In this document: one piece after another, positions 1 through 24,000 of the stretch
Numbering within the stretch: position 1 is the first letter of the stretch
Layout of the letters: each line of letters opens with the position of its first letter
Notes under the pieces: generated by a model
What the model was told of the DNA's origin: nothing
The model's database searches: none
Seen by the model: the letters and a program-made list of their open reading frames with translations, nothing else
Origin: an uncultured Thermoleophilaceae bacterium
GTDB lineage: Bacteria; Actinomycetota; Thermoleophilia; Solirubrobacterales; Thermoleophilaceae
Assembly: GCA_963722245.1 (NCBI GenBank)
Contig: CAVRKM010000003.1
Location: 28,572 to 52,571 of the forward strand
Length of the DNA: 24,000 nucleotides
Direction: 5' to 3'
Position numbers and translations under genes: made by a program

Positions 1-907
1 TGCTGGGGCTGGTCGCGGAGCAGACGGGCTACCCCGAGGATCTGCTCGACATGGACCTCGATCTCGAGGCCGACCTGGGGATCGACACGGTGAAGCAGGC
101 CGAGGTGTTCGCCGCGATCCGCGAGGCCTACGGGATCGAGCGCGATGACACGCTCAAGCTGCGCGACTACCCGACCATCAACCACGTCGTGGGCTTCGTC
201 CGCGAACGGGCTCCCGGCGAGGGCAGCGCGACTGCTGCCGCGGCGCCGCCGGCCGCTCCGCCCGCTCCCGCCGTTCCCGCTCCCGCGGCAGCACCCGTGG
301 CTCCTGCTGCTGTCGCTCCCGTCCCGGCGGGTGATGTCGAGGCGCGGGTGCTGGGGCTGGTCGCGGAGCAGACGGGCTACCCCGAGGATCTGCTCGACAT
401 GGACCTCGATCTCGAGGCCGACCTGGGGATCGACACGGTGAAGCAGGCCGAGGTGTTCGCCGCGATCCGCGAGGCCTACGGGATCGAGCGCGATGACACG
501 CTCAAGCTGCGCGACTACCCGACCATCAACCACGTCGTGGGCTTCGTCCGCGAACGAGCTCCCGGCGAGGGCAGCGCGACTGCTGCCGCGGCGCCGCCGG
601 CCGCTCCGCCCGCTCCCGCCGTTCCCGCTCCCGCGGCAGCACCCGTGGCTCCTGCTGCTGTCGCTCCCGTCCCGGCGGGTGATGTCGAGGCGCGGGTGCT
701 GGGGCTGGTCGCGGAGCAGACGGGCTACCCCGAGGATCTGCTCGACATGGACCTCGATCTCGAGGCCGACCTGGGGATCGACACGGTGAAGCAGGCCGAG
801 GTGTTCGCCGCGATCCGCGAGGCCTACGGGATCGAGCGCGATGACACGCTCAAGCTGCGCGACTACCCGACCATCAACCACGTCGTGGGCTTCGTCCGCG
901 AACGGGC
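1..907 (+). repeat. 348-bp tandem repeat (2.6 copies in the window, continuing upstream) encoding the ACP-plus-linker units
   Basis: Units start at 1, 349 and 697. Copies are identical at nucleotide level except one synonymous change (cgg at 205-207 vs cga at 553-555). Identity ends at 907. Confidence 0.95.
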
Positions 908-3533: not shown

Positions 3534-3549
3534 GAGCGTTGCCGCGGAC

Positions 3550-9158: not shown

Positions 9159-9834
9159 CGTCCCGGCGGACGACGGCTGGCTCGGTCCGGGCGAGCGCGA
9201 GGTGCTCGCCCGACTTCGGTTCGAGAGGCGCCGCCTGGACTGGCGGCTCGGCCGCTTCACGGCGAAGGCCGCCGTGGCGGCCTGGCTGGGCCTACCCGCC
9301 ACCGGCGTGGTGATCGCGGCCGCATCCGACGGCGCGCCAGAGGCCCGCGTCGGCGACGACCCGGCCCCGGTCTCGCTGTCGCTGAGCCATCGGGGCGGGC
9401 GCGCGCTCGCTGTGGTGGGCGAGGCGGGCATTGCGATGGGATGCGATCTCGAGTTAATCGAGCCGCGCAGCCGGGCCTTCGTGGCCGACTGGCTTGCGCC
9501 GGCCGAGCAGGCTCTGGTGGCCGATGCCTGCGCCTCCGACCGCGACCTGCTCACGAACCTCCTGTGGACCGCGAAGGAGGCCGCCGCCAAGGCACGGCGG
9601 GAGGGGCTCCGCCTTGATCCCCGGCACGCCGTGGCGACGCCCACCGGGATCGGTTCCACGACCCCCGGCTGGCGCCGGCTCGAAGTCATCTGGAGCGACG
9701 GCGGCGGGTGCGCCGCGGGCTGGTGGCGAGGCGAGCCGGGTTGGGTGATGGCAATCGCCGGCGAGCCGGCGCCCGGTGTCCCGCGGGCGCTCGACGCCGT
9801 GGCGACCGAGCCTGCACTGGACGATGGACCGTAG
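9121..9834 (+). CDS. Sfp-type 4'-phosphopantetheinyl transferase
   Basis: 237-aa ORF with IAMGCDLELIE (metal-binding GxD..E) and LLWTAKEAAAKARREG (W/FxxKEAxxK). It overlaps the carboxylase stop by 38 nt and sits next to a multi-ACP synthase. Confidence 0.8.
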   Translation: MTSPGWLTRSIADVPADDGWLGPGEREVLARLRFERRRLDWRLGRFTAKAAVAAWLGLPATGVVIAAASDGAPEARVGDDPAPVSLSLSHRGGRALAVVGEAGIAMGCDLELIEPRSRAFVADWLAPAEQALVADACASDRDLLTNLLWTAKEAAAKARREGLRLDPRHAVATPTGIGSTTPGWRRLEVIWSDGGGCAAGWWRGEPGWVMAIAGEPAPGVPRALDAVATEPALDDGP

Positions 9835-9975
9835 TTCGCCCGCATCAGGTCAAGCGACTCCCTCGGATGCTCCGGCCTCGGCCTTCATCCGGCCGTCTTA
9901 AGACCCCTCGTTTCTCGCGGTCGTTGCCGCAAGCTCAGCGAAGCGCGACGACGGTCATCGACGGCACCGGTCCAG

Positions 9976-10010
9976 CAGTAACCCGCTCTCACCGAGCACG
10001 AGCGTTACTG
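9976..10010 (-). terminator. Stem-loop on the chromosomal side of the island junction, possibly the native terminator downstream of the original tRNA-Phe 3' end
   Basis: CAGTAAC(cc)GCTC, an 11-nt loop, then GAGCGTTACTG form an 11-bp stem with a 2-nt bulge. It abuts and overlaps the direct repeat at 10007. There is no T tract. Confidence 0.3.
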
Positions 10011-10050
10011 ATGGCGAGGGCCGGAATCGAACCGGCGACACCACGATTTT
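10007..10050. repeat. Distal att-type direct repeat: a copy of the 3' 39 nt of tRNA-Phe plus 5 nt of flank
   Basis: The 44 nt are identical to 22493-22536. A degenerate extension (10052-10059) matches 22537-22548 with indels. Confidence 0.9.
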
Positions 10051-10272
10051 TCAGTTGCTTCCGAAGGGTGTCGGGTGGTGCACTCGGGTGTTCCGTGGCT
10101 TGGTAGCGGGATAGCAGGTGCCTCGTGGTGCGCTCCGGTGCACCTGGAGGTTTCCAAGCCGTTTCGAAGACGGTGAAGGGCTGAGCGAGAGGCGAGCCCG
10201 CTTGCACGGCGGGTTCCTGCACGGACCTTTCCGGCGCCGCAAGCGGTCGAAGCTTCCCTGGAAGCGCTGAGT

Positions 10273-10317
10273 GGCCGGGCACCCGGGGACCGCAAAGGGC
10301 CCCGCGGATGCCCGGCC
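10273..10317 (-). terminator. Long GC-rich hairpin immediately downstream of the FAS1 gene
   Basis: GGCCGGGCACCCGGGGACC, loop gcaaa, then GGGCCCCGCGGATGCCCGGCC form an imperfect ~19-bp stem. It starts 10 nt after the stop codon (10327-10329). There is no U tract, as is common in high-GC actinobacteria. Confidence 0.45.
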
Positions 10318-10326
10318 TGCTCAGGG

Positions 10327-10845
10327 TCAGCGCGGAGGAAGCAGGACGGCGTTGATCGCGTGGATCACGCCGTTGGATGCCTTGACGTCGGCCTGGATCA
10401 CCTTCGCGCCGCCCACCCGCACGGTGCTTCCGCGGGTGCGGACGCGGACGCGAGGCCCGGCCAGGGTCTTGAGCGAGTCGACCTTCACTACCCGCGCGGC
10501 CGGGTAACGGCCGGCCACGGCGTGGTAGAGCAGCACGCGCTTCAGCGCCTTCGGGTCCTCACCAAGCGCCTCGAGGGTCTCGGCCGGGACCTTCTTGAAG
10601 GCCTTGTCGGTCGGGGCGAAGACCGTGAACGGCCCCTTCCCCGACAGTGTCTTTGCGAGCCCGGCGCTCTTGACGAGCGAGACGAGCGTGTCGAAGCGCC
10701 CGTCGGCGGCGGCTGTCTTCACGATGTTCTTCCGTGCCTGCTTTGCAGCGGGCTCCGCGGTGGAGCCGTTGCCGCCCCCGAGCGCGACGGCCGCGGTGGC
10801 GAGTCCCGCTACGGCGACCAGGACGAGGATTGCGAGCTTACGCAT
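10327..10845 (-). CDS. Secreted fasciclin (FAS1) domain protein
   Basis: 172 aa with signal peptide MRKLAILVLVAVAGLATAAVA. FAS1 motifs are FTVFAPTDKAF, LLYHAV and NGVIHAINAVLLP. AAGGAG (10857-10852) lies 6 nt before the ATG. Confidence 0.9.
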   Translation of the reverse strand: MRKLAILVLVAVAGLATAAVALGGGNGSTAEPAAKQARKNIVKTAAADGRFDTLVSLVKSAGLAKTLSGKGPFTVFAPTDKAFKKVPAETLEALGEDPKALKRVLLYHAVAGRYPAARVVKVDSLKTLAGPRVRVRTRGSTVRVGGAKVIQADVKASNGVIHAINAVLLPPR

Positions 10846-10869
10846 TAGTCACTCCTTCTGTCGATGTGC

Positions 10870-10919
10870 TGTACCACTCTTGTCCAAGAACTGTATAGCA
10901 CACGTCGAGCTACTGTCAA
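10870..10919 (-). promoter_or_regulatory. Predicted promoter of the FAS1 gene (TTGACA, 18-nt spacer, TACAGT) overlaid by 11-bp-phased TGT/ACA repeats; candidate LitR/CarH operator
   Basis: On the minus strand TTGACA is at 10919-10914 and TACAGT at 10895-10890. On the plus strand TGTAC starts at 10870, TGTCC at 10881, TGTAT at 10892, CGTCG at 10903 and TGTCA at 10914, an exact 11-bp phase. The 10-mer ACTGTATAGC (10890-10899) recurs at the litR promoter. Confidence 0.5.
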
Positions 10920-10975
10920 GACTGCCTCTTCCGGCGCCGTCCACGCCGGGGGCCGGGCAGGTCGTGCACCGGGCG

Positions 10976-11829
10976 CTAGAGCGTGGCGGCGACCGCTACC
11001 GGGTCGCCCGCCAGCACGCGGCAGCCGAGTGAGCGCGCCACGTCATCGCTGGCGCCCAAGCCGGCGATGGCGAGCGCATGGTCCTGAGCGAGCGCGGCCA
11101 GCTTGCTCGCCTCGGCGGCGGAAGCCCTGGGACGTCACGGCGGTTACGACGACGAGCGCCGGGCGCACCCGGTCGGCCGTCTCCGCCACGCTCGCCGCGG
11201 GTGTGTCGGCGCCGAGGAAGACGATCCTCCAGCCCCGTTCCCGCAGCGCCAAGCCGAACACGATGAGCGGCAGATCGTGCTGCTCGCCGGCCGCGCATGC
11301 GAGCAGGGCGATGCGGCCACCGCCCCGTTCCCATCCTCGCGCCAGGGCGAGTAGCCGGCCACGAATCAGGTTGCTGGCGAAGTGCTCCTGCGCGATCGAC
11401 ACCGCGCCTTGCTCCCAGCGGCTACCCAGGTCCCGCAGGTACGGGAGGATCACCCCGGACAGGGCGGTCTCGACCATGAACGTCCAGAAGACCTCGTCGA
11501 GCGCGGCATGGGCATCCTCGGCGTCCATAGTCGTCGAGGGCGGCCGTGAGCCGCTCGCGCGCGAGATGCAGTGCGCTCTCGTTGCCTCCCGTGCCGAGCT
11601 CAGGCTCCGCGAGCGCCAAGCGCGCGGCCTCGGCGGCGGAGATGCCGCGCTCGAGCTCTGCCTGCATCGCCCGGACCCGACGCTCGTCGTCGGGCGAATA
11701 CAGGCGCAGGCCGCCACCGGTGCGCGCGGGGTCGAGGAGCCCGTAGCGGCGCTCCCAGGCTCTCAGGAGCTCCGGACTCACACCGGTCCGGCGGCTGAGC
11801 TCGCCGATCCGCAGGGTGTGCACGCTCAT
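10976..11829 (-). CDS. litR: MerR-family, B12-binding light-responsive regulator (LitR/CarH type). The frame is broken twice as assembled (~11525 and ~11115-11135).
   Basis: The N-terminal MerR HTH is MSVHTLRIGELSRRTGVSPELLRAWERRYGLLDPARTGGGLRLYSPDD. The Wx9EH motif is RWEQGAVSIAQEH (W codon 11417-11415). The B12-binding segment GEQHDLPLIVFGLALRERGWRIVFLGADTP has its His codon at 11279-11277. The C-terminus is recovered in a third frame (AAEASKLAALAQDHALAIAGLGASDDVARSLGCRVLAGDPVAVAATL, stop at 10978-10976). Confidence 0.8.
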
Positions 11830-11832
11830 CGC

Positions 11833-11865
11833 TGTACTGTATAGCTTTTGTACAGAGGTGTGGAA
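11833..11865 (-). promoter_or_regulatory. Predicted leaderless litR promoter (TCCACA, 17-nt spacer, TACAGT) with TGT/ACA repeats; candidate autoregulatory operator
   Basis: TACAGT is at 11841-11836 and the A of the ATG (11829) is the 7th nt after it. TCCACA is at 11864-11859. Plus-strand TGT starts at 11833, 11838, 11849 and 11859. ACTGTATAGC at 11836-11845 is identical to 10890-10899. Confidence 0.45.
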
Positions 11866-11910
11866 GGACACGGGCGCCTCGCCCGCGAAGCTGTCTCGCC
11901 CCTGACGCTT

Positions 11911-12621
11911 ATGGCGGTCCAGCTCTTTCGCCATCGCGATCAGGACCCGTCCGTAGATGACAACGCACTGGTGACCTTCGCCCAAGAAGGTTTGCCGGTG
12001 ACCGAGGAGTACGACGGAGGCCGTCTCTTGACGCGCGTCAACGGGCGGCGGATGATCACGCCGCTCGTCCTCGTGCTGCTTGCGATCGGCAGCACGGACA
12101 TCCTGTTCGCACTGGACTCCATCCCGGCGGTCTTCGGCGTCACGGAGGAGACGTTCATCGTGTTCGCGGCCAAGGCGTTCGCCTTGCTCGGCCTGCGCGC
12201 GCTGTTCTTCCTGGTCACTGGACTGCTGGACCGGCTCGTCTACCTCTCAACGGGCCTATCGCTCATCCTCGCCTTCATCGGCGCCAAGCTCGTGCTGCAC
12301 TGGGGCCACCTCCAGAACCCCCATGTCCCTGAAATCTCCACCGGGGCATCGCTCGTGGTCATCGCGGTCGTGCTCGGTATCACGACCCTCGCCAGCCTCA
12401 CCGAAGTGCGCCGGAACCCGACCGGCGAGCGCATGCTGGTTCGCTGCGCTCGCACCCGCCGGAGTCCCCGCCCCGCCGCGGGCCGACCGAAACACCGTCA
12501 AAGGCGCCCAAGGGCCCATGGCAACGAAGCGGCCGAAGTGATTCGGCACCCTCGACCTCCTGAACGGCAAGCGGAACGTGAAGTGCCCGTTCGCCGCGGA
12601 TATCCCTGCAAACACGCATGA
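11911..12621 (+). pseudogene. TerC-family membrane protein, C-terminal half only (5'-truncated remnant)
   Basis: GRRMITPLVLVLLAIGSTDILFALDSIPAVFGVTEETFIVFAAKAFALLGLRALFFLV matches the TerC core. The N-terminal ~4 TM segments are absent and the remnant begins at the litR promoter. The Arg-rich tail after ~12430 looks non-native. Confidence 0.6.
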
Positions 12622-12797
12622 TCAGGCGGTTGCGGGCGACGAGCCAGGCGCGGGCGCGGTCGTGACGTTCTGCACCATCCCGGGAACGTCTTAACCGGCG
12701 CGGACGGAGCCCGGTTTGTGCGACAGCCCCCATGGGAAGCGGCAGCGGCGGGCCGGGCGGCGGCGTCGCTCCAGACCTGTGGCCCGCCCGCGTCCGC

Positions 12798-13583
12798 TCA
12801 GCCGCCTGCGAGCGCGCCGGCGTAGACCTGCCATGCCAGCGCGCTCTTGGCGACCAAGCTGAGGATCAGGTAGACGCGCTCGGCGAACGCCGGGTCCGCC
12901 CAACGGCCGCGCTCACGGTACTGCAGCCACATGTTGACCGCGAACGTGTTGAAGAGCAGGAACAGCGTGACGAAGATCGCGACGACGAACCCGGGGACCC
13001 CGTTGCCGTCGCTAGTCGAGACGACGAGTTGGGCCGTGATCGCGATCCACGGGACGGCGCCAACCACGCACCCGAAGATGAACGGCCGCCAGTCCACCTC
13101 GTCACGGCCGGCGTTCACCTGCTCCTGCACAAGCCCGAAAAGGATCATCGCCGCATTCGCCCCGAACAGCGCGATCAGCGCGACGAGCTCGCTGACCCCA
13201 GCGAGCATCGCGATGAGCACGACCATGAGCGACGCGCTGACCGAGTACTCCCACCAGCGCGCCGGATTGATCCCGCGCGCAACGTTCGCCTCGTACCAGC
13301 GGCGCGGCCGCCCGCCGCTCAGCGTGAGGTGGTCGACCGCGGCGAGCAACAGAAACGCCGCGACCAGCCAGTCGATCCGCACACTGCCCAGGCTCGCGGA
13401 GCCGAAGTCGCCGGCGCCGGGCGGGCCGACCAGGAACGACGCCGTGATCGGGAGCGAGGCGGCAGTCGCGATCGCGAGCAGGACGACCGCCTGAAGCGCG
13501 TGCACGGAACCGACGATGACGTTCAGACGGCGCAGTCGGGAGGCCGCCGCGGCGTCGAGCTGGGCTGGCGCACGATCGGGCAT
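12798..13583 (-). CDS. Heliorhodopsin (7-TM retinal protein, HeR family)
   Basis: The 261-aa product is colinear with the 48C12 prototype as I recall it: LNVIVGSVHALQAVVLLA, RWWEYSVSASLMVVLIAMLAGVSELVALIALFGANAAMILFG, FGCVVGAVPWI, VPGFVVAIFVTLFLLFNTFAVNMWLQY and YLILSLVAKSALAWQ. H28, H85, E112 and K246 align with H23, H80, E107 and K241 at a constant +5 offset. The Lys codon is at 12848-12846. Confidence 0.9.
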   Translation of the reverse strand: MPDRAPAQLDAAAASRLRRLNVIVGSVHALQAVVLLAIATAASLPITASFLVGPPGAGDFGSASLGSVRIDWLVAAFLLLAAVDHLTLSGGRPRRWYEANVARGINPARWWEYSVSASLMVVLIAMLAGVSELVALIALFGANAAMILFGLVQEQVNAGRDEVDWRPFIFGCVVGAVPWIAITAQLVVSTSDGNGVPGFVVAIFVTLFLLFNTFAVNMWLQYRERGRWADPAFAERVYLILSLVAKSALAWQVYAGALAGG

Positions 13584-13795
13584 GTCCCCAAAGGTACGGT
13601 CGCGGGAGAGAAACGGACCCCGCGTGCCCGGAGGGGTGTCACGGGGATGCCGGACAACAGCGAAGCACGGCGCAAGCTGTAGCCCGAGAGAGCGACTTCT
13701 ACGGAGGGTGGATGACCGCCGACCTGATCGATCCCCTTCAAGGGACCGCCGGGCAGGCTCGGCTGGTGAGGCCGGGGCTGCCGGCGGCTTCGCCT

Positions 13796-14227
13796 TCAGC
13801 GATTGAGTTCGCGCTCGAGCCCGGCCCTCGCGTTGTCCCCGAGGCGCTTGAACATCAGGCCCAGGATCGGATCGGCGAGCTTCAGCAGGCCCTTGGGACG
13901 CAGGTCGGCATCGTAGGTGACCTCGGAGCCGCCGTCAGCGCCGGGCCGGAATGTGATCGTGTCTTCGGAGACGACCGTCGAGCTTTCGGCCCGGACAACG
14001 ATCCGCTCCGGCCGCTCGAAGGTCATGGTCCGGTAGACGAACGGCAGCTCCCGGCCTGCGAAGCGAACGACGACCTCGAATTCCGTGCCGAGCCCCGGTT
14101 GTTCGCCGAGCATCCGGGCGCTGACCGCGGTCTCGTCCCACTCCCTGACGGAGCTGAAGTCGGCCAGGTAGTCGAAGGCCTCGCCCTGGGGCTTGCGTGA
14201 GTGCACGGTGGCCACGTAGCGGGCCAT
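13796..14227 (-). CDS. SRPBCC (START/polyketide cyclase-dehydrase-like) family protein
   Basis: The 143-aa reading starts at the ATG at 14227, preceded by AAGGAGG. MARYVATVHSRKPQGEAFDYLADFSSVREWD...TYDADLRPKGLLKLADPILGLMFKRLGDNA is typical of the small SRPBCC ligand-binding fold. Confidence 0.7.
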   Translation of the reverse strand: MARYVATVHSRKPQGEAFDYLADFSSVREWDETAVSARMLGEQPGLGTEFEVVVRFAGRELPFVYRTMTFERPERIVVRAESSTVVSEDTITFRPGADGGSEVTYDADLRPKGLLKLADPILGLMFKRLGDNARAGLERELNR

Positions 14228-14338
14228 CAGTCGCCCTCCTTGCCGCCGGAGGCGATCGTCGGCACCGTCCCGGCATCCTCGCTCCAGCCGGAGAGACGGG
14301 AGCATTCGTCCCAAAGTCGCTCGCGGTCGGCCTCGGAC

Positions 14339-15247
14339 TCACGCGTCCACGGCACCCGGTGGGTGGACCGCGGGCGCGCGGTCGTGCCAGAACAGACCCG
14401 GGCGCTCGGCAGGCTCGGCGGCCGTCGCGAGCCAGACGATCGTGTCGGCCGCCTGGTCGGCGCTGCGGAGCAGCGGGCGCATCAGCTTGCGGAAGCGGGG
14501 CAGTGACGTCTGCACGCCGGGCGTGTCCGCCCAGCCCGGGTGCATGGCGTGGACGCCGATTCCGGTTTCGCGAAGCCGCTCAGCCCAGAGTTCGGTGAGG
14601 ATCACCTCGCAGCGTTTGGTGTGTGCGTAGAACGCCGGCGGGTCGTACTCGCGGCGCTCCAGCTGGAGGTCATCGGCGCAGAGCCGTTGCGTGTACATGC
14701 CGCCCGAGGAGACGTTGATCACCCGCGAAGGCGCGCCGCGGCGCAGGGCCGGCAACAGCAGGTTGGTGAGCAGAAACGGGCCGAGCACGTTGGTCGCGAA
14801 GGTGAGCTCGAAACCCTCCTCGGTGTGAGTGCGCGTGGACGGCATCACGCCGGCGTTGTTGACGAGCACATGAAGCTCGCCGTGCTCGCTGACGAAGCGA
14901 GAGCTGAACTCACGCACCGAGGCGAGGCTGGACACGTCGCAGACCTCTACCTCCAGGTGGTCGGAGCCGGTGCGCTCGGAGATGCGAGCCCTGGCTCTCT
15001 CGCCCTTTTCACGGTCACGGACGAGCATGTGCACGGTAGCGCCAAGGCCCGCGAACCGCTCGCACGCGGAGGCGCCGATCCCCGCTCCGGCGCCGGTGAC
15101 CAGCACCGACCAACCTGCCGGGGCCGCCTTCGGATCGGGGTCGTTCCAGAACCGCTCCCGCACGGCAAACCCGAGCCTGCTGTAGCCGGGCAGGACAGTC
15201 CAATCGAGGGTCTTGTCGAGGAGGCCGGAGATCAAGGCTCCATTCAC
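14339..15247 (-). CDS. Short-chain dehydrogenase/reductase (DHRS12/retinol-dehydrogenase-like subfamily)
   Basis: GTG start at 15247 follows AGGAGAGG. Motifs are VLVTGAGAGIGAS (TGxxxGxG), NNAG and YAHTKRCEV (YxxxK), with the N-terminal LDKTLDWTVLPGYSRLGF extension. The rest of ORF 14339..15967 upstream is out-of-frame overlap with the next gene. Confidence 0.8.
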   Translation of the reverse strand: MNGALISGLLDKTLDWTVLPGYSRLGFAVRERFWNDPDPKAAPAGWSVLVTGAGAGIGASACERFAGLGATVHMLVRDREKGERARARISERTGSDHLEVEVCDVSSLASVREFSSRFVSEHGELHVLVNNAGVMPSTRTHTEEGFELTFATNVLGPFLLTNLLLPALRRGAPSRVINVSSGGMYTQRLCADDLQLERREYDPPAFYAHTKRCEVILTELWAERLRETGIGVHAMHPGWADTPGVQTSLPRFRKLMRPLLRSADQAADTIVWLATAAEPAERPGLFWHDRAPAVHPPGAVDA

Positions 15248-15885
15248 GCTACCTCTCCTGACTCTGCGGGCGTCCTCATGGCCTTCGTCGAGCGCGACGG
15301 CTGAGCGGAGTAATGGCCCGACGACCCTCGATGCGCAGGCCGCTCGCAACCGGACGAAGACCAGAAGCCCCGAAGTGCGAGCCGCCATCCGGCGCAGACG
15401 TGCCAGCGATCGGCCCGGACGTGCGCACACCAGCGGTCGCGCAGCGCGGCGATCTCGGCAAAGGCCTGTGGGTGCTCTGTCCCGAGCAGCGTGTAGGCCT
15501 CGGGCTTGGCCACCGTCAGCGAGGCCAGCACCTGCGGCGTCGTGACCGCCACATACAGCCCGGTCGCCCCACCCCAGAAGAACCCGATGAGATGAACCGG
15601 CTCGCCGACATGGTTCACGACGGCATGGACCTGGTCGGCGTAGTCGTCGAGGGTCCTCTGCCCTGGAGTGCCGGAGCCGTCGCCGTCGCGGTACGCGTCC
15701 ACCGCGATCAGCCGGTACCCCTCTGGCCACAGCGAGAACACCGCCCGCCACTCGCCGGCGCTGCCCACGCCACTGTGCAGGAACACCGCCGCGGTGCCGT
15801 TGCCGCGCTCGACGATCCGGTTTGCTGTGGCGGTACGTCGCGACGGCGGTCGACCGGGTGCTGCCGGGGCTCGGGCGAGGTGCAC
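15244..15885 (-). CDS. Alpha/beta-hydrolase-fold protein, short and probably degraded, with Phe at the nucleophile position
   Basis: GTAAVFLHSGVGSAGEWRAVF...YRLIAVD...VHLIGFFWGGATG fits the fold (oxyanion HG, nucleophile elbow GxSxG read as GFFWG). The C-terminal ~60 aa is Trp/Cys/Arg-rich and lacks the Asp/His region. The stop overlaps the SDR start in GTGA. Confidence 0.5.
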   Translation of the reverse strand: MHLARAPAAPGRPPSRRTATANRIVERGNGTAAVFLHSGVGSAGEWRAVFSLWPEGYRLIAVDAYRDGDGSGTPGQRTLDDYADQVHAVVNHVGEPVHLIGFFWGGATGLYVAVTTPQVLASLTVAKPEAYTLLGTEHPQAFAEIAALRDRWCAHVRADRWHVCAGWRLALRGFWSSSGCERPAHRGSSGHYSAQPSRSTKAMRTPAESGEVA

Positions 15886-15899
15886 TGCGGCGGCCCGGC

Positions 15900-16345
15900 G
15901 TGGCGGGCAGCCCGTCGAGGGCCGCGGTCGACGAACTCCTCAACGGCGCCGCCGGGCTGCGGCGCAAGCTGGTGATCGTGCTTGGCGATCTCCACGCGGT
16001 GACCAGCCAGGAATGCCTGGCGTCGATCGACTACGCCCTCGCGCACTTTCCTGCGAACACGCACGTCGTCCTCGTTACACGCGTCGATCCGGCGCTCAGG
16101 CTCGCGCGTTTGCGCGCCGGGCGATGCGCTCGCCGAGGTGCGTGCTGATCTCGCGTTGACCCACGCCGAGGCCCACGAGCTGGTCGTGGTGCTCGGTCAT
16201 CTCGAGCTCGCTGCGGAGCAGATCGACGTGCTCGTCGAGCCCACCGAGGGCTGGCCCCGCGGCGCTCGTCCCCGCCTGGCTGTGGCTGCGGACCGTCGAC
16301 GATCCGGCGCGGGCCCGTGCGGGCGTTCGGAGGAGACCACCGCCT
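15900..16345 (+). pseudogene. Central fragment of a MalT/LuxR-type large ATP-dependent regulator (both ends missing, several frame breaks)
   Basis: KLVIVLGDLHAVTSQECLASIDYALAHFPANTHVVLVTRVDPALRLARLRA is followed, in other frames, by DLALTHAEAHELVVVLGHLELAAEQIDVLVEPTEGWP, AALV..WLWLRTVDDP and VRAFGGDHR. There is no NTPase P-loop and no C-terminal HTH. Confidence 0.55.
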
Positions 16346-16642
16346 TCATGCGCCGAGTGCATGGCCGACCTTGACGATGACATAGCCGAGGCCCGCCGCC
16401 CCGAATGCGCGGCGCAGCCAGTTCGTGCCGTCCGCCAGCTCCTCCCACGCCCACGCCGCGAGGCCGGTGTAGAACGTGGCACGCGCGTAGGCATGCGCCG
16501 AGCCGTCCGTCAGCGCCGCGACGAGCCACCCGCCCAGCGCGACGAGCAGCGGCGCGTTCGGGAACTGCGCGACCGGGTAGCTCGCCGGCCAGCCGTGCTG
16601 CCCGCGCCGCCAGGGGTCCCTCGGTGTCGATGTGGTGCTCAC
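16346..16642 (-). CDS. Small hypothetical membrane protein
   Basis: ~98 aa from the GTG at 16642: FPNAPLLVALGGWLVAALTDGSAHAYARATFYTGLAAWAWEELADGTNWLRRAFGAAGLGYVIVKV. It is protein-like in composition and divergent from the acyltransferase gene. The start codon is uncertain. Confidence 0.45.
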   Translation of the reverse strand: MSTTSTPRDPWRRGQHGWPASYPVAQFPNAPLLVALGGWLVAALTDGSAHAYARATFYTGLAAWAWEELADGTNWLRRAFGAAGLGYVIVKVGHALGA

Positions 16643-16732
16643 CGGTGCTGAACCTAGCGGTCGCCCGCCGGGATCGCAGAGAATGGCGACGTGGAGCGGG
16701 GAGGCGTCGACGAGACCCGCGCGGAGACCGTC

Positions 16733-17734
16733 ATGCGACGGCTGCGCACGATCCCGCCGCGCGTGCTGGGGTTGCTGCTGGTCACGGTGCTGCTGCCCGG
16801 TGCTGCTCGTCGTCGCCGTCGTGATCGACGCGCTGCGCCGGGTGGCGTTTGGCGTGCCGCCGACGGCCGCGCGGCTCGTCCTGTTCCTCTGGGTGTACCT
16901 CGCCGCCGAGGTCGCGGGCGTCGCCGCGCTGGCGACGCTGTGGGTCGCGAGCCTCGGCGGCCGGCGCAGCGCCTGGCTGCGTGAGATGACCTGGCGCGTC
17001 CAGCAGCTGTGGGCCGGCGCGCTGCTCGGCGCGGTGCGTGCGCTGTTCCGGCTGCGGCTCGAGGTCGCGGGTGGCGACGAGGTCGCGCCGGGGCCCGTGA
17101 TCGTGCTGATCCGCCACGCGAGCATCGTCGACAACCTGCTGCCGGCGAACCTCGTCGCCCGCCCGCACGGGATCCGCCTGCGCTACGTGCTCAAGCGCGA
17201 GCTGCTCGCCGATCCCTGCCTCGACATCGCCGGGCGACGGCTGCCGAACTACTTCGTGCGCCGCGGAACGGGCGAGGCGCAGGAGCTCGAGCGGGTGCGG
17301 GCGCTCGCCCACGGCCTCGGGACCCGGCGACGGCGTGCTGATCTATCCCGAGGGGACCCGCTTCACGCCGGAGCGCCGCGCCCGCGCGATCGCGCGCATC
17401 GCCGAGCGCGACGCGCGACCTGGCCGCGCGGGCGGAGCGGATCCGGCATCTGCTGCCGCCGCGCCTCGGCGGCGTCGGCGCGCTGCTCGACGGCGCACCG
17501 GACGCCGACGTCGTGGTGATCGCCCACCACGGCTTCGACGGCCTGCGGCTGATCTCGGACATCTGGCGCGGCGGCCTCGTCGGGCTCGTGGTCCGGGTGC
17601 GCGTGACGCGGGTGCCGCGGTGCGCGGTGCCCGAGGCGGATGCCGCCCGCGCGGACTGGCTCTACGAGCTCTGGCAGGACGTCGACGACTGGCTCGACGA
17701 GCAGTTCGAAGAGCGCCGCCGCGCGGATACCGGC
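16733..17734 (+). CDS. PlsC-family lysophospholipid/1-acyl-glycerol-3-phosphate acyltransferase. The frame is broken 3 times as assembled (~16798, ~17320, ~17410).
   Basis: MRRLRTIPPRVLGLLLVTVLLP continues in another frame as VLLVVAVVIDALRR. Motifs follow: VLIRHASIVDNLL (HxxxxD), GDGVLIYPEGTRFTPERR (next frame) and RIRHLLPPRLGGVGALLDG...VVVIAHHGFDG (next frame). No stop precedes the DUF1295 start in that last frame. Confidence 0.7.
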
Positions 17735-18520
17735 ATGAGCACCGCGGGCCTGCTGGCCGTCGAGGCGCGGTGTCATCTGGTGCTGGTCACGGGGCTGTGG
17801 GCGGTGAGCGTCGCCGTGCGCGACACCTCGATCGTCGACGTCTTCTGGGGCAGCGGCTTCGTCGTCGTCGCGTGGGTCGCCTTCGCGCTGGCGGACGGGA
17901 GTCGCGACCGTCGCCTGCTCCTGGCGCTGCTCGTGACGGCCTGGGGCCTGCGCCTGACCGTCTATCTCGGCCGCCGCAACCTCGGCAAGGGCGAGGACCG
18001 CCGCTACGCGGCGATGCGCCGCCGGCACGGCGACCGCTGGCCGCTGCGCAGCCTGGTCGTCGTGTTCTGGCTGCAGGGCGCTCTGATGTGGGTCGTCTCG
18101 CTTCCGGTCCCGGTCGCGATGACCGACCCCACGCCCGCGGGCCTCGGCGCGCTCGACTGGGTCGGCGCCGCGCTGTGGGCGGTCGGGCTCGCGTTCGAGG
18201 CCGTCGGCGACGCGCAGCTCGCGCGATTCAAGGCCGATCCGGCGAACCGCGGCAAGGTCATGGACCGCGGGCTGTGGCGCTACACGCGCCATCCGAACTA
18301 CTTCGGCGACTTCTGCGTCTGGTGGGGGATCTGGCTCATCGCGCTGAGCACCGGCAGCGCGTGGTGGACGGTGGTCGGTCCGGTGGTCATGTCGGTCCTG
18401 CTGATCCGGGTCAGCGGCGCGGCGCTGCTCGAGCGATCGCTGATCCGGCGGCGCGAGGGCTACGCGGACTACGTCGCCCGCACCAGCGCGTTCTTTCCCT
18501 GGCCGCCGCGTCGCCGCTGA
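17735..18520 (+). CDS. DUF1295 / steroid-5-alpha-reductase-like membrane protein
   Basis: The 261-aa product has DTSIVDVFWGSGFVVVAW, GEDRRYAAMRRRHG, GLWRYTRHPNYFGDFCVWWGIWLIAL and LLERSL..RREGYADYVARTSAFFPWPP, the characteristic DUF1295 pattern. Confidence 0.8.
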   Translation: MSTAGLLAVEARCHLVLVTGLWAVSVAVRDTSIVDVFWGSGFVVVAWVAFALADGSRDRRLLLALLVTAWGLRLTVYLGRRNLGKGEDRRYAAMRRRHGDRWPLRSLVVVFWLQGALMWVVSLPVPVAMTDPTPAGLGALDWVGAALWAVGLAFEAVGDAQLARFKADPANRGKVMDRGLWRYTRHPNYFGDFCVWWGIWLIALSTGSAWWTVVGPVVMSVLLIRVSGAALLERSLIRRREGYADYVARTSAFFPWPPRRR

Positions 18521-18562
18521 GCGCCGGGCCGGGCCTTAGGTCTCCGTCGGAGCCGGCCCGCC

Positions 18563-19520
18563 TCAGTGATCGTGCGGCGGCGGTGGACGGGATGGAGAAC
18601 CGGCCGGGGTGGGCGCCCCCTCATCCTCGCCAAGCGCCCTGCGCAGCGCCTCCGTGAAGGGGATCGGGTGCACGTCGAAGAGCGCCGCCCCCGAGCTGTC
18701 CGTAACGGTGGTCGGCGTCGACAGCCCCTCTACGAGTGGCCGGGCGACTCCGGCGTCGACCGGGGTCACGAGTCCGATCCAGAGCGAGGACAGCCAGGGC
18801 GTGAGGAGCGGCACCGGCACCCGGGGGCGGCGCCGCACGCCGAGGGCATCGGCCATCAGGTCGAGCATCTCGCCGTAGGAGAGGACGTCGGGACCTGCGA
18901 TCTGCACCTCGCGGCCCGCTGAGGCTGGGACGTCGGGCGCCGCCACTAGGTAGGTCATCACGTCGTCGATCGCGATCGCCTGCGTGGGCGTCTTGAGCCA
19001 CGCGGGGCCGATCATCGCCGGGAGCCGCTGCACGAGGTAGCGCAGTGTGCGGTAGGACTCGCTTCCCTCCCCCACGATCATCCCGGCTCGGAAGTAGGTC
19101 AGCGGCGGCCCCCGCTCGGAGAGAATCTCGGCGGTCCGGTGGCGGCTGCGAAGGTGCGCCGACCCCGGGCGATCACCCAGCCCGCCCAGGTAGACGACCC
19201 GGGCGATCGCCCTCTCGCGTCGCCATCTCGGCGAAGTTCCGCGCGCTGTGCCGCTCGCGTTCCTCAAACTCGCCCCGTGCCCCGCGTCCCATCGCGTGAA
19301 TGAGGTAGTAGGCGATCTCGACTCGTTCCCCGGCCCCGCGCAGCGCGTTTGCATCGAGCACGTCGGCCTCGTGCAGCTCGAAGCCACGATCGGCCAGCTC
19401 CTGCGCTCGCGAGCGGTCGCGCACGAGACAGCGCACCTCCCAGCCGCGGTCGGCGAGCGCAGCGGCCAGCCGCCCGCCCACGAACCCGGTGGCGCCGGTC
19501 ACGAGCGCACGCCGCGGCAA
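18563..19520 (-). CDS. NAD(P)H-binding NmrA/atypical-SDR-like protein. The frame is broken once as assembled (~19210).
   Basis: MPRRALVTGATGFVGGRLAAALADRGWEVRCLVRD has a TTG start after GAGAGGA. The sequence then continues in another frame as IARVVYLGGLGDRPGSAHLRSRHRTAEIL...GREVQIAGPDVLSYGEMLDLMADALG. Confidence 0.75.
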
Positions 19521-19580
19521 GCCTACGGTCCTCTCAGCTCCGGGCCGCCCACTGGCGAGATTATGCAGAGGCCGGTGCTC

Positions 19581-19873
19581 TCAGCCTGCGAGCGCGCCGG
19601 CGTAGACCTGCCATGCCAGCGCGCTCTTGGCGACCAAGCTGAGGATCAGGTAGACGCGCTCGGCGAACGCCGGGTCCGCCCAACGGCCGCGCCCACGGTA
19701 CTGCAGCCACATGTTGACCGCGAACGTGTTGAAGAGCAGGAACAGCGTGACGAAGATCGCGACGACGAACCCGGGGACCCCGTTGCCGTCGCTAGTCGAG
19801 ACGACGAGTTGGGCCGTGATCGCGATCCACGGCACGGCGCCAACCACGCACCCGAAGATGAACGGCCGCCAGT
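19581..19873 (-). pseudogene. 3' fragment of a second heliorhodopsin gene (last ~96 codons, TM6-TM7 including the retinal Lys)
   Basis: The 293 nt match 12798-13093 with 2 substitutions and one in-frame 3-nt indel. There is no 5' part and no credible start. Homology stops 13 nt from the MFS stop codon. Confidence 0.85.
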
Positions 19874-19886
19874 AGACCCGAGTCCT

Positions 19887-21588
19887 TCATGGGCGCATCA
19901 GACGGCGCGGTCGAGGAGCGTCAGGCGCGTGCGGGGTTCGCCCGGACGAGCGTCCGAGGCCGCCGGCTGCTCCTCCCGCTGCCGCGCCGCCGGGTCGTCC
20001 GCGCGGCAGCGCCAGGCTCATCAGCAGGCCGAGCACGATGAATCCGGTCGCCAGCAGGGCGGTGCGGCGTACGGCGCTGACGTATGCGTCGTCGAGAGCC
20101 GTGGCCTGCGCCTGGGACCCCGGCAGGGCGCGCACCCCGAGCAGGCTCGTCCCGAGGCTGTCCTCGAACGCCGTCGCGGTCGCGTGGGCCCGTGCGGCCG
20201 GCACGTTCGCCGCCGCCAGTTCGTCGCGCGCGAACGAGCCGAGGCTCAGCGCGAGCACCGTCCCGAGCATCGCGATCCCGAGCGCGGAGCCGAGCTGACG
20301 CGCGGTGCTCTGCAGGCCCGACGCCTGACCGGACTGCTCCGGCGGCACATCGATGAGGATCACGCTCGTCAGCTGCGCGGTGGCGAAGCCGACGCCCAGG
20401 CCGTAGACGAACAGGATCGCCGCGATCTCCCCTTCGCTGATCGTGGTCGATGCCGAGAGTGCGAACGCGCCCACGCCGATGGCCTCGAGCAGCATGCCGG
20501 CCGTGACGACGCGGCGACCGCCGAAGCGCTGGGCCAGGAGCGCGGCAGCGGGCCCCGCGAGGAACGCGCCGGCCGCCATCGCCGCGATCACGACGCCCGT
20601 CTCAGCGCGCTGTAGCCGAGGACCGTCTGCAGGAACAGCGGCAGGACGAACAGGATCCCGAACTCGCCGAGGCTCACGAGCAGCGCCGTCGCGCTGCCGA
20701 GGCTGAAGCTGCGCAGCCGGAACAGGCGGAAGTCCAGCAGCGCGACGCGCCCCGCCTGCTGACGGCGCCACTCGACCGCCAGGAACACGCCGAGCCCGAT
20801 CACCCCGCACGTGAACGCGAACGGCACAGGCGAGGCGCCACCGGCCGAGGCCGACAGCGGCCCGATCGACCAGGCCTCCTTCGCTCCCCACCAGCCGTAG
20901 TGCTGACCCTCGATGAGCCCGAACACGAACAACCCGAGCCCGAACGACGAGAGCAGAATCCCGCGCCAGTCGATCCCCGCTTCAGCATGCTCGTCCTTCG
21001 TCTCGGGGACGAAACGCAACGCCCCGAGGATGCAGACGACGCCGATCGGGACGTTGATGAGGAAGATCCAGCGCCAGCTCGCTTCGGTGACGAGCCAGCC
21101 CCCAACGAGCGGCCCGAGCGCCGCCATGCCGCCGATGACCGAGCCCCACACGCCGAACGCGATCGCCCTGTCGCGCCCGCGGAAGATCGCGTTGACCGAC
21201 GAGAGCGTCGAGGGCAGGATCGCGGCGCCGCCGACGCCCTGCAGCACCCGCGCGGCGATCAGCGCTCCGCCGCTCTGCGAGACCGCCGCGAGCAGACTGG
21301 CGAGCGCGAAAATGACGACGCCGAAGACGAAGACGCGCCGCCGGCCGACACGTCGCCCAGGCGTCCGAGCGTCAAGAGCAGCGCAGCGAAGACGAGCGGG
21401 TAGACCGAGTTGATCCACTCGGCCTGCGTCGTGCCGAGCCCAAGGTCGCGGATGATCGTCGGCAGCGCGACATTCACCACGGTCGCGTCAACGATGATGA
21501 TCGAGACGCCGAGACTCAGAACGGCGAGGCCGATCCAGCGCCCGCGATCCTGCGCCGCACCGGCCATGCGCGCGTCACGCTGGTTCAT
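19887..21588 (-). CDS. DHA2-family (EmrB/QacA-type, 14-TMS) MFS transporter. The frame is broken twice as assembled (~21348 and ~20607).
   Basis: VSIIIVDATVVNVALPTIIRDLG and LTLGRLGD are followed in the next frame by VGRRRVFVFGVVIFALASLLAAV...LQGVGGAAILPSTLS...WRWIFLINVPIG. The next frame gives ETGVVIAAMAAGAFLAGPAAALLAQRFGGRR...LTSVILIDVPPEQSGQASGLQSTARQLG. The start could be the ATG at 21588 or the one at 21567. Confidence 0.8.
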
Positions 21589-21807
21589 CGGGCGCAAGCT
21601 CGGGTCCACGAGCGCCAACTGTCGCACCTCGGGCGATCGACGCTTCCCCGGCTGGACGTGGTACGACACCTACCGGATCGTCCGTTGCCGGGGGGCCTGA
21701 CGCCTGCTCGGTCGAGCGCGGAAACGCCTCCCTGTTCGTGGCAGGCTGGGCCGGGTTGGGTCTCGGGGGAGACCGGGCTTGATGGGTTCCTCAATTGAGC
21801 TGGTTTC

Positions 21808-21880
21808 TCGAACCGGCGACACCATGTTCTGACGCGTGGTCTCCAGCGTTCTAGTCCAGCGCCCGATCCAGGGGCGCACC
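21808..21880 (-). other. Degenerate tRNA-like relic / possible third att copy
   Basis: 21808-21824 (TCGAACCGGCGACACCA) is identical to 22513-22529 of tRNA-Phe and to 10027-10043. Weaker anticodon-arm and D-arm-like similarity extends to ~21880. It cannot fold into a canonical cloverleaf because the second half of the T-loop and the acceptor 3' strand are missing. Confidence 0.45.
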
Positions 21881-21893
21881 ACGCGCCCAAAGC

Positions 21894-22388
21894 ATTGGAC
21901 TCGTCTGGGGCAACATCGACTTCGGCAAGGAAGCGATCCGAGTCACCGGACAGCTTCAGCGTGGACGCAAAGAGGACGACCTTTGGATTCCGCTCATCGC
22001 GTCGAGTACGCGAAGACCGATGCTGGCTCGCGCATCGTGGAACTCATCCCGTCCGATCTGTTCAAGGCGCTCAAGAAGCACAAGCTCGGGCTCACCTCAC
22101 TGACGACGAAGACCTAGTTTTCTGCACGGCAGACGGGACGCCCCCGGTCCATCGCAACGTCTCCAAGCGAGGCTTCGTCTCAGCCAAGGAGAGGGCCAAA
22201 CTCGATGGACCTGGCAAGCCCAACCTGCGCTTCCACGATCTGAGGCACACCTACGCCTCAGCCAACATCGCGGCAGGCGTAGATGCGATCTACCTCGCTA
22301 ACCAGCTAGGGCACCAGCGAGCTTCACGATGGACATTTACGCGGACCTGTTCGAGGCCCGGGAGAAGGCGGACTCGTCTCGAACCTAG
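21894..22388 (+). pseudogene. Tyrosine recombinase (phage-type integrase), C-terminal catalytic half only, with >=3 frame breaks
   Basis: GLVWGNIDFGKEAIRVTGQLQRG (frame 0), AKTDAGSRIVELIPSDLFKALKKHKL (frame 2), DLVFCTADGTPPVHRNVSKRGF...NLRFHDLRHTYASANIAAGVDAIYLANQLGH (frame 1) and FTMDIYADLFEAREKA (frame 0, catalytic Tyr). Stop TAG is at 22386-22388. Confidence 0.8.
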
Positions 22389-22451
22389 CTCGAAGCGAGC
22401 GGCTACAGCGGTCTCGTCTGAGACCTCGCGTTCCCAAATCCGTTTCCAAAC

Positions 22452-22485
22452 GAGGCTCCGGCGCAACTCGGAGCCTCCGTTTTGG
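22452..22485 (+). terminator. Intrinsic terminator hairpin between the integrase remnant and tRNA-Phe
   Basis: GAGGCTCCG, loop gcgcaact, then CGGAGCCTC form a perfect 9-bp stem followed by CGTTTTGG. Confidence 0.6.
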
Positions 22486-22497
22486 CTCTAGGACTGA

Positions 22498-22570
22498 TGG
22501 CGAGGGCCGGAATCGAACCGGCGACACCACGATTTTCAGTCGTGTGCTCTACCAACTGAGCTACCTCGCC
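22498..22570 (-). tRNA. tRNA-Phe (anticodon GAA)
   Basis: The minus-strand reading is GGCGAGG TA GCTC AGTTGGTA GAGC A CACGA CTGAAAA TCGTG GTGTC GCCGG TTCGATT CCGGC CCTCGCC A. It is a perfect cloverleaf of 73 nt, and CCA is not encoded. Confidence 0.95.
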
Positions 22571-22619
22571 GCGCAGGGCTGAGAGCCTATCCGTCCGGCG
22601 CGCGGGCGACGCTGGCGAA

Positions 22620-23255
22620 ATGCAGCCCAAGAACAGGGAGTGGCTCGCACCGCTCACCGGCGTCGGGTTCATCGTGCTCGGGATCGTGAGCTTCATCGTG
22701 GGGGGCGAGCCGAAGAGCGCGGACCACCCGGTCAAGGAGGTCGTCGCCTTCTACGTTGACAACAAGGACTCGGTGGAGGTCGGGGCGTTCATCGGCGTGG
22801 CCGCGATGGTGCTGCTGGTCTTCTTCGGCGGCTATCTCCGCAAGGTCCTGCGCGCGGCGGCGGGCGAGGGGGAGATGCTGTCGCTGATCTCGTTCGTCGG
22901 CATCGCGATCGTGGCGGTCGGGTTGGCGGTGGACACGACCATCCTGATCGCTCTCAGCGAGGCTGCGAACGACATCGATCCCGTCGCCGTTCAGGCCTTG
23001 CAGGCGCTCTGGGACAACGACTTCATCCCCCTCGTGGTGGGTGTGCTGCTGTTCCTCTGGGGCACCGGGCTGTCGGTCATCCGCACCGGCGTGCTGCCGA
23101 AGTGGCTCGGCTGGGTGATGATCGGGCTGGGGGTAATCGGCTTTACGCCGATCGGCTTCGTCTCGGCCGTGGGCGCAGCGATCCTGGTGCTGGTGCTCAG
23201 CGTTCTCTTGACGCTCCGTGCGCGCTCGCCAGTGGCTGACGCGCCGGGTACGTAG
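22620..23255 (+). CDS. Hypothetical integral membrane protein (about 6 TM segments)
   Basis: The 211-aa ORF has repeated hydrophobic helices (VGFIVLGIVSFIVGG, GAFIGVAAMVLLVFFGG, LISFVGIAIVAVGLAV, LVVGVLLFLWGTGL, WVMIGLGVIGFTPIGFV...). No family could be assigned from memory. Confidence 0.6.
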   Translation: MQPKNREWLAPLTGVGFIVLGIVSFIVGGEPKSADHPVKEVVAFYVDNKDSVEVGAFIGVAAMVLLVFFGGYLRKVLRAAAGEGEMLSLISFVGIAIVAVGLAVDTTILIALSEAANDIDPVAVQALQALWDNDFIPLVVGVLLFLWGTGLSVIRTGVLPKWLGWVMIGLGVIGFTPIGFVSAVGAAILVLVLSVLLTLRARSPVADAPGT

Positions 23256-23774: not shown

Positions 23775-23821
23775 AGCAAGCTGGTACCGCACCGGCCTTC
23801 CCGCCAAACTACGCTGCGCTC

Positions 23822-24000
23822 ATGAGAACTCGCGCGAAGCTGGCCCTGGCCCTCGTCCTGCTCCTCGTCGCCGCCGTTCCCGCGGTTGCGGCGACCACTC
23901 CGACCGGCAAGAGCGCCGAGCAGATACGCCAGTACAGGGACTCGGGCGAGTGGGCCAGGGCCGTCTCGAAGCAGGCCACGAAGGCAAAGGCCTGGCTCAA
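23822..24000 (+). CDS. 5' part of a secreted protein (signal peptide), continuing beyond the window
   Basis: The ATG at 23822 gives MRTRAKLALALVLLLVAAVPAVAATTPTGKSAEQIRQYRDSGEWARAVSKQATKAKAWL. This is a clear signal peptide and more protein-like than the antisense ORF 23809..24000. Confidence 0.5.
   Translation, partial: MRTRAKLALALVLLLVAAVPAVAATTPTGKSAEQIRQYRDSGEWARAVSKQATKAKAWL

What the first reader, a model, noticed from the sequence alone, without database searches (positions are those of the whole stretch)
10007..22570. Eroded ~12.5 kb integrative island in tRNA-Phe, bounded by a 44-bp perfect direct repeat
10007-10050 is identical to 22493-22536, that is, the 3' 39 nt of the tRNA-Phe(GAA) gene plus 5 nt of flank, with a degenerate extension. 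A tyrosine-recombinase remnant sits next to the intact tRNA. It has HDLRHTYAS and the catalytic-Tyr segment FTMDIYADLF but lacks its N-terminal half and needs >=3 frame changes. Between the repeats lie cargo genes unrelated to the flanking lipid cluster. There are also gene stumps: a TerC C-terminal half cut exactly at the litR promoter, the middle of a MalT-like regulator, and a heliorhodopsin 3' end. This is the classic signature of a fixed, decaying tRNA-targeting island. It implies that the photoreceptor genes inside were acquired horizontally.
Basis: partly seen in the sequence, partly recalled or inferred. Interest (0 to 1): 0.6.

Follow-up and report, generated by a model that had tools for sequence, protein, structure and literature searches.

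The report
Dead tRNA island in stacked array
A 12.4-kb piece of once-mobile DNA carrying light-sensing genes sits in a tRNA gene of a soil bacterium as the newest of several islands stacked at the same spot; this is a known kind of genomic island, with unusually clear traces of its history.

Summary
The 44-bp repeat is real. With one extra T it reaches through the tRNA-Phe anticodon loop. Both ends carry the same paired 8-bp motif, found 4 times in the genome and also behind sister integrases: inferred arm sites of one split attP. Relative G018 has the predicted empty site. The integrase breaks, the TerC junction and the MalT-like stump recur in short-read contigs of other soil runs, so they are real. 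Several cargo frameshifts look like long-read errors (core baseline: 24 of 98 genes). Main correction: the 'flanking' lipid cluster is not backbone. It lies in an older, integrase-less ~34-38-kb island, 97-99% identical in G018, whose other genes are ~76% identical. The finding is the newest layer of a tandem array whose modules share one ~150-bp arm (5 of 211 family genomes). Horizontal origin of the litR block and of heliorhodopsin is supported by identities, not by composition. This is a known kind: a tDNA island with CIME-type accretion. The scan noted similar integrase-less tRNA-Phe scars and arrays in two other genomes.

The parts
10007..10055 (-). attR core: displaced 3' part of tRNA-Phe from the anticodon loop to CCA plus 5-nt flank; one extra base in the A-run (also in G018)
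10056..10208 (-). P arm of attP, ~150 bp, shared at 81-92% by 7 other module ends in 5 genomes including G000
10150..10168 (-). paired 8-bp direct repeat (TTGGAAAC-like) in the P arm; arm-type integrase sites by inference
10327..10845 (-). fasciclin-domain protein, intact
10976..11830 (-). MerR + B12-binding (CarH/LitR-type) regulator; two extra bases (~11114, ~11531) against the intact G081 copy, real or error not settled
11914..12504 (+). TerC/Alx C-terminal half
   Evidence: junction matched by X2 contig 11779-12167
12798..13583 (-). heliorhodopsin, intact
   Evidence: PF18761 E=3e-90
13682..13766 (+).
13796..14227 (-). SRPBCC / polyketide-cyclase-like protein, intact
14230..15245 (-). short-chain dehydrogenase, one frame change at ~14372
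15244..15825 (-). alpha/beta-hydrolase, partial
15900..16350 (+). internal stump of a MalT-like regulator, broken over frames (ends approximate)
   Evidence: X1 contig 15769-16374 with 0 differences
16690..17710 (+). acyltransferase (PF01553), 2-3 frame changes
17735..18520 (+). DUF1295 membrane protein, intact
18563..19520 (-). NAD(P)-binding epimerase-like protein; frame change near 19207 is probably an assembly error
19584..19873 (-). 290-bp duplicate of the heliorhodopsin 3' end (99.3%)
19887..21590 (-). DHA2-family MFS transporter in three frames (ends approximate)
21855..22421 (+). tyrosine-integrase remnant: catalytic domain only, 3 frame changes and a stop; GC 62% over 21701-22430
   Evidence: X1 21969-22232 (0 differences) and X3 21557-22082 (1 mismatch, 0 gaps)
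22430..22449 (-). P'-arm paired repeat directly behind the integrase stop, also behind sister integrases L087, L089 and on C16
22493..22570 (-). attL: restored tRNA-Phe(GAA) 22498-22570 plus 5-nt flank
1..10006 (+). tRNA-proximal end of the older outer island: multi-ACP type I PKS/FAS, fused acetyl-CoA carboxylase, PPTase; continues left to about C3:4500

Best explanation
An integrative element with a three-domain tyrosine integrase recombined its attP into the anticodon loop of tRNA-Phe. This restored the tRNA (attL, 22493-22570) and displaced the 3' part 12.4 kb away (attR, 10007-10055). SHOWN: the repeat, matching paired motifs at both ends, the empty site in G018, the broken integrase. INFERRED: the paired motifs are arm-type binding sites and the inverted repeat CACGA-N7-TCGTG is the core site. 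The integrase then lost its N-terminal half, so the island cannot excise by itself. Its cargo is a patchwork from a light-response gene pool that circulates among tRNA-adjacent islands in this order. It landed at a tRNA that already carried older modules of the same family, so the array grew by accretion at the tRNA end. INFERRED, about 55% on its own: the integrase-less outer modules moved between species as passengers, when an intact inner element recombined its own attL with the outermost attR (cis-mobilisation).
For: Repeat and tRNA. The paired motif occurs 4 times genome-wide: both ends, an orphan arm at C3:6987, and a sister integrase tail at tRNA-Ser(GGA) on C16; it also follows sister integrases L087 and L089. 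Only 4 of 49 tRNAs carry the stem CACGA-N7-TCGTG, among them both tRNA-Phe and the tRNA-Ser(GGA) beside the sister integrase tails. Empty site in G018. G087 has two modules, each ending in arm plus core; its first core sits where G000 and G018 keep only an orphan arm. Outer island: 0.8-2.9% substitutions against G018, versus 75.5% identity over 9 non-island segments. No PF00589 match lies on the array contigs of G018, G009 or G087. Of 8 tRNA-proximal ends tested, only this island's attL keeps the P' doublet.
Against: No intact element carrying this arm was found, so the autonomous ancestor is reconstructed, not seen: 0 of 80 genus genomes match the integrase DNA, and the best genus protein match to P0002 outside G000 is 41% over near full length. 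No relaxase, conjugation or phage gene appears among 25 island and 23 outer-region ORFs, so the vehicle between cells is unknown. Composition does not set the island apart. G018's empty site could be ancestral or post-excision. G000 lacks the outermost attR that G018 keeps. In the HeR tree the G000-G131 fork is unresolved.
Confidence: 0.85

Rival explanations
1. The island is still mobile in trans: both att cores and both arm doublets are intact, so a sister integrase elsewhere in the cell could excise it.
For: C16 ends inside the tail of a sister integrase with the same doublet at tRNA-Ser(GGA); that tRNA shares the anticodon stem. The genome is 76% complete.
Against: Only the last ~10 codons of that gene are assembled; no other close match to P0001/P0002 in G000. 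The extra base in attR may block strand exchange (inference).
Confidence: 0.12
2. The island is real, but the 97-99% identical outer lipid block crossed species by another route (plasmid, transformation, homologous recombination through shared arms or duplicated WS/DGAT genes), not by cis-mobilisation.
For: No helper element was found next to any array. Modules contain repeated genes and arms that could recombine. Part of the arm plus litR cargo sits in a tRNA-Met island in G081, so cargo also moves by other routes.
Against: The block ends at the same tRNA-Phe junction in both species while the genes on the tRNA's 5' side are not homologous, which argues against flank-guided recombination.
Confidence: 0.3
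3. Repeat and decay are artefacts of a long-read metagenome assembly (collapsed strains, indel errors).
For: Frame changes in 24 of 98 core orthologues. A second haplotype (C14) is in the bin. One-base differences that fit assembly errors at 6796 (3 of 4 runs) and 19207 (4 of 4 runs).
Against: Contigs of independent runs match the integrase breaks, its truncated 5' junction, the TerC junction and the MalT stump at 99-100% without gaps. The arm-core junction recurs in G018, G087 and G009.
Confidence: 0.03

Closest known systems
tDNA-targeted genomic islands, anticodon-centred attP site A (Islander, PMC4383910; passages read)
   Same: Intact tRNA plus displaced 3' fragment downstream in the same orientation, 2-200 kb apart, with a tyrosine integrase at one end.
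   Different: The integrase is a remnant, and the outer modules have none, so Islander's integrase filter would drop them.
CIMEs and tandem accretion, as reviewed in PMC5704250 (passages read; Pavlovic 2004 and Bellanger 2011 seen only as references)
   Same: Decayed elements that keep att sites; a newcomer integrates at the target-gene end; composite arrays can transfer together.
   Different: No functional ICE or IME is adjacent. The outer modules keep only the P-arm end and have lost the P' doublet. Transfer is inferred from identity, not tested.
Additive flexible genomic islands (Alteromonas, PMC5217437; passages read)
   Same: Same position across relatives, variable cassettes, near-identical cassettes across species.
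   Different: Here the module ends share one conserved arm, which lets the order of accretion be read.
Heliorhodopsin neighbourhoods with MerR regulators, TerC, SDR and alpha/beta-hydrolase (PMC11109279; passages read)
   Same: All four neighbour types occur in this cargo.
   Different: Here they are shuffled and partly broken inside an island.

Membership tests
tDNA genomic island (Islander definition) | Intact tRNA with its end fragment downstream, same orientation, 2-200 kb apart | tested here: met
   12.4 kb
tDNA genomic island (Islander definition) | Tyrosine integrase that is not Xer or integron type | tested here: met
   Remnant hits PF00589 and phrog_1; full-length relatives carry PF14659+PF22022+PF00589 and score far below the Xer and IntI cut-offs; gene broken
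tDNA genomic island (Islander definition) | Uninterrupted site in a relative | tested here: met
   G018; G016 has tRNA-Phe followed directly by the genus-typical flank
CIME (cis-mobilisable element) | Integration and transfer genes lost | tested here: met
CIME (cis-mobilisable element) | attL and attR retained | tested here: met
   Met for the 12.4-kb island (both cores, both doublets). The outer modules lack the P' doublet and G000 lacks the outermost attR.
CIME (cis-mobilisable element) | Excised and transferred together with an adjacent functional element | not testable with these tools
   Inferred only from 97-99% cross-species identity
ICE / IME | Functional integrase plus relaxase or conjugation module | tested here: not met
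   None among 48 island, flank and outer-region ORFs scanned
Prophage | Virion or phage replication genes | tested here: not met
   Pfam scan; PHROGs hits only for the integrase among 5 window ORFs; the best viral-contig relative of the integrase is 35% identical
Integron cassette array | IntI-type integrase, attI and attC bottom-strand hairpins | tested here: not met
   Relatives score 49-62 bits against the IntI cut-off of 265; module ends are tRNA fragments; no Rfam hit other than tRNA in 9500-24000

The most novel reading that the evidence does not exclude
The ~150-bp arm plus tRNA-Phe core is a living, genus-specific cassette end. Modules of unrelated cargo (a 25-kb PKS/carboxylase lipid block, PPK2, light sensing, WS/DGAT) are capped by the same arm and stacked, swapped and carried across species by a shared integrase subfamily that reads the stem CACGA-N7-TCGTG in both tRNA-Phe and tRNA-Ser, acting in cis or in trans. 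This would be an integron-like, tRNA-anchored platform in soil Thermoleophilia rather than a pile of dead islands.
Probability: 0.12. Interest if true: 0.6.

Novelty: new member of a known kind. Interest (0 to 1): 0.3.

Why it matters
As given, the finding is ordinary: 9 of 49 tRNA genes in this assembly have a displaced 3' fragment within 150 kb. Its value is as a clean worked case. Three species show successive layers of one array. A ~34-38-kb integrase-less lipid-synthesis island is near-identical in species whose other genes are about 76% identical. The sister integrases offer a testable reason for a tRNA-Ser/tRNA-Phe target switch (same anticodon stem). It also shows that 'decay' read from long-read assemblies needs a frameshift baseline.

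Tried and rejected
Composition: island GC 70.4% (20th percentile of 290 windows); tetranucleotide measures at the 25th and 66th percentiles; no signal. Search for an intact cognate element: none in 80 genus genomes by DNA; 0 of 89 family genomes passed 1e-45 with profile A2 in a 301-genome order sample; 3 of 9 metagenome loci were 66-81% relatives, all on contigs under 2 kb; viral contigs gave 35% at best. Excision junctions: none among the 15 of 148 joints shown by read laying; contigs cannot show absence. The 17 of 20 runs with word shares under 0.2 were not used as habitat evidence; one of them, X6, was laid. An outer attR in G000 C3:1-62000 was not found at up to 3 mismatches. The C14 27-bp repeat first looked like the same family, but it starts at the T-stem and has other arm motifs, so it is a different element. 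Rfam gave only the tRNA. PDB sequence search gave only distant tyrosine recombinases. A paper search for heliorhodopsin + B12-binding + MerR returned 0. Whether litR's two extra bases are real stayed open: no listed contig covers them.
Full report
SETTING. The window is G000:C3:28572-52571, in a 3.7-Mb, 16-contig bin that is 76% complete. Two public contigs carrying the same att-arm motif are titled uncultured Thermoleophilaceae MAGs; I take the host to be of that group (inference). The best-holding sequencing runs are soil metagenomes.

THE REPEAT. 10007-10050 equals 22493-22536 and overlaps tRNA-Phe(GAA) at 22498-22570, minus strand. With one extra T the match runs to 10055/22540, so it begins at the 5' side of the anticodon loop. 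Islander calls this the anticodon-centred site A, used by 2083 of its 3919 islands (PMC4383910, passages). G018's attR has the same extra base, G009's has one at a nearby place, and G087's two copies have none, so it may be real or a homopolymer error. Such islands are common here: 9 of 49 tRNA genes have a displaced 3' fragment within 150 kb.

THE ARMS. Inside attR lies a ~150-bp stretch with a paired TTGGAAAC-like repeat (10150-10168); the same pair follows the integrase stop (22430-22449). A loose pattern finds it 4 times in the genome: these two, an orphan at C3:6987, and the end of C16 beside tRNA-Ser(GGA). Two metagenome integrases 66-81% identical to P0002 carry the pair directly behind their stops; L089 is followed by tRNA-Ser(GGA). 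That tRNA and tRNA-Phe share the anticodon stem CACGA-N7-TCGTG, present in 4 of 49 tRNA genes. I read the pairs as arm-type sites and the stem as the core site; the labels come from my knowledge of lambda-type integrases and binding was not tested.

THE INTEGRASE. The remnant matches residues ~175-364 of P0001 in four pieces at 50-73% identity, with an in-frame stop near the end; the N-terminal half is absent from the assembly. Full-length relatives (364 and 397 aa) carry PF14659, PF22022 and PF00589, hit phrog_1 at 1e-64 and stay far below the Xer and IntI cut-offs. The lysine, HxxR, histidine and tyrosine motifs are present but spread over three frames; the first arginine box is degenerate. 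GC over the remnant is 62% against 71% genome-wide.

REAL DECAY OR ERROR? Against proteins from four relatives with 100 or more contigs (taken as short-read; 184 queries, 98 passing the orthology filter), 24 G000 genes show a frame change, 0.33 per kb. Seven cargo genes with full-length relatives show 5 frame changes over about 5.2 kb, about three times that rate on small numbers; the integrase has 3 in 0.56 kb. Contigs of 4 runs (3 studies; one may be the source sample) settle part of this. Matched without gaps: 21969-22232 (0 differences), 21557-22082 (1), 15769-16374 (0) and 11779-12167 (1). So the first two integrase breaks, its truncated 5' junction, the MalT stump and the TerC junction are real; the third break and the stop lie beyond the listed pieces. 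One-base deletions appear at 6796 (3 of 4 runs, inside the carboxylase) and 19207 (4 of 4 runs, contigs about 90% alike), and gapped pieces cover the SDR and acyltransferase breaks, so several cargo breaks are probably errors. The tables were cut, and litR is not covered.

EMPTY SITE AND THE LARGER ARRAY. In G018 the PPTase is followed after ~320 bp by intact tRNA-Phe, and window 9930-10055 matches straight into it. But G018:C5:7132-44909 is itself bounded by an attR with the same arm (90%), and matches G000 C3:4502-38580 with 0.8-2.9% substitutions, while 9 non-island segments average 75.5%. This outer island carries two WS/DGAT genes, a beta-lactamase-fold protein, an aminotransferase, an HMG-CoA-reductase-like protein, a GH65, ETF, an acyl-CoA dehydrogenase, a KS-AT-multi-ACP-KR-DH synthase (PfaA-like; label recalled), a fused carboxylase and the PPTase. 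G087 has tRNA, a 6.6-kb module, attR, a 4.1-kb module, attR; both modules match parts of this outer region at 86-97%, and its first attR is complete where G000 and G018 keep only an arm fused to a cut oxidoreductase gene. G009 has the arm on a 1.7-kb PPK2 module. The arm is in 5 of 211 family genomes, all one genus. The order of accretion in G000 is thus: 4-kb module, 6-kb module, lipid block, then this island (inference from position). C14, a sister haplotype 88-95% identical to C3, lacks all 47 kb and has a different 4-kb island with a 27-bp T-stem repeat.

HOW THE OUTER BLOCK MOVED. G018, G009 and G087 have no PF00589 match on their array contigs, and of 8 tRNA-proximal ends tested only this island's attL has the P' pair. 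G000 and G018 share the same integrase-less junction, so the block crossed species after losing its integrase. An inner element's attL and the outermost attR together make a full attP, which is the CIME accretion and cis-mobilisation route described in PMC5704250 (passages). I put this step at about 55%; no helper was found.

CARGO ORIGIN. Fasciclin-litR (with part of the arm) and SRPBCC-SDR are 94% and 92% identical in G081, inside a 7-kb tRNA-Met island, against 77.6% for 17 non-island segments; SRPBCC-SDR is 93% in G072 and 89% in G012. Heliorhodopsin is found in 3 of 81 genus genomes, G000 included and one of them a half gene. Its best match among 301 order genomes is G131 of another family, 91% in protein and 88.6% in DNA, against 71.7% for 19 non-island segments; there it precedes the acyltransferase and DUF1295 beside tRNA-Gly. 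Against this: the tree leaves the G000-G131 fork open, litR-like and fasciclin genes occur at 65-76% in many genus members, and composition is unremarkable. The transfer is therefore within the order, not from a distant donor. TerC, MerR, SDR and alpha/beta-hydrolase genes are listed as frequent heliorhodopsin neighbours in PMC11109279 (passages); G048 has litR-terC-heR in a row.

LITERATURE. Seen as passages only: PMC4383910, PMC5704250, PMC5217437, PMC11109279, 10.1101/2020.11.02.365908 and 10.1101/2021.02.01.429150. Williams 2002, Pavlovic 2004 and Bellanger 2011 were seen only as reference-list entries. No supplements were opened; those of PMC11109279 list neighbour genes and may bear on the cargo. 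The listings showed no paper on these arrays in Thermoleophilia; the library lacks most subscription journals.

VERDICT. Observation confirmed; interpretation right in kind, wrong about the flank, overstated about erosion. A new member of a known kind; interest 0.3.

Noticed in passing
window 1-9834 (G000 C3:4502-38580; G018 C5:8024-44591): A PfaA-like multi-ACP synthase, a fused acetyl-CoA carboxylase and a PPTase with ETF, acyl-CoA dehydrogenase and WS/DGAT genes form a mobile lipid block 97-99% identical in two species; product unknown.
   Followed up: partly
G000 C14 (L001): Sister haplotype in the same bin, 88-95% identical to C3, with a second tRNA-Phe and a different 4-kb island (DUF389, TetR, DUF6653, SnoaL) bounded by a 27-bp T-stem repeat.
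   Followed up: yes
G000 C16:183161-183365 (L051): The contig ends in the last codons of a sister integrase with the same arm doublet at tRNA-Ser(GGA); the rest of the gene is unassembled.
   Followed up: partly
G009 C5:658012-662032 (L025); G000 C16:103165-107182 and C13:158585-162512: A 4-kb ABC-transporter plus two-component module sits in G009's tRNA-Phe array and in two copies in G000 at 93-97%; the C16 copy lies between two tRNA-Arg 3' repeats.
   Followed up: partly
window 11830-11866 and L065:3480-3850: G081 carries different TerC scraps (residues 73-88 inverted, 104-126) at the same place beside the litR promoter, so a full terC there decayed separately in two lineages.
   Followed up: partly
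G000 C10 end (199942) versus G018, G009, G087: The lipoprotein and helicase genes that flank tRNA-Phe's 5' side in G018, G009 and G087 lie at the end of G000's C10, while G000's tRNA is flanked by a membrane protein and a ferritin-like gene; this suggests an inversion of the tRNA-plus-array segment.
   Followed up: no
L026, L041, L042, L036 (downstream of tRNA-Phe or its fragment): A conserved genus-typical hairpin-like flank ending in a partial inverted copy of the tRNA 3' end follows unoccupied tRNA-Phe sites.
   Followed up: no
window 16346-16600: Small membrane-protein gene with no Pfam, NCBIfam or PHROGs hit; 79% DNA match in G053.
   Followed up: no
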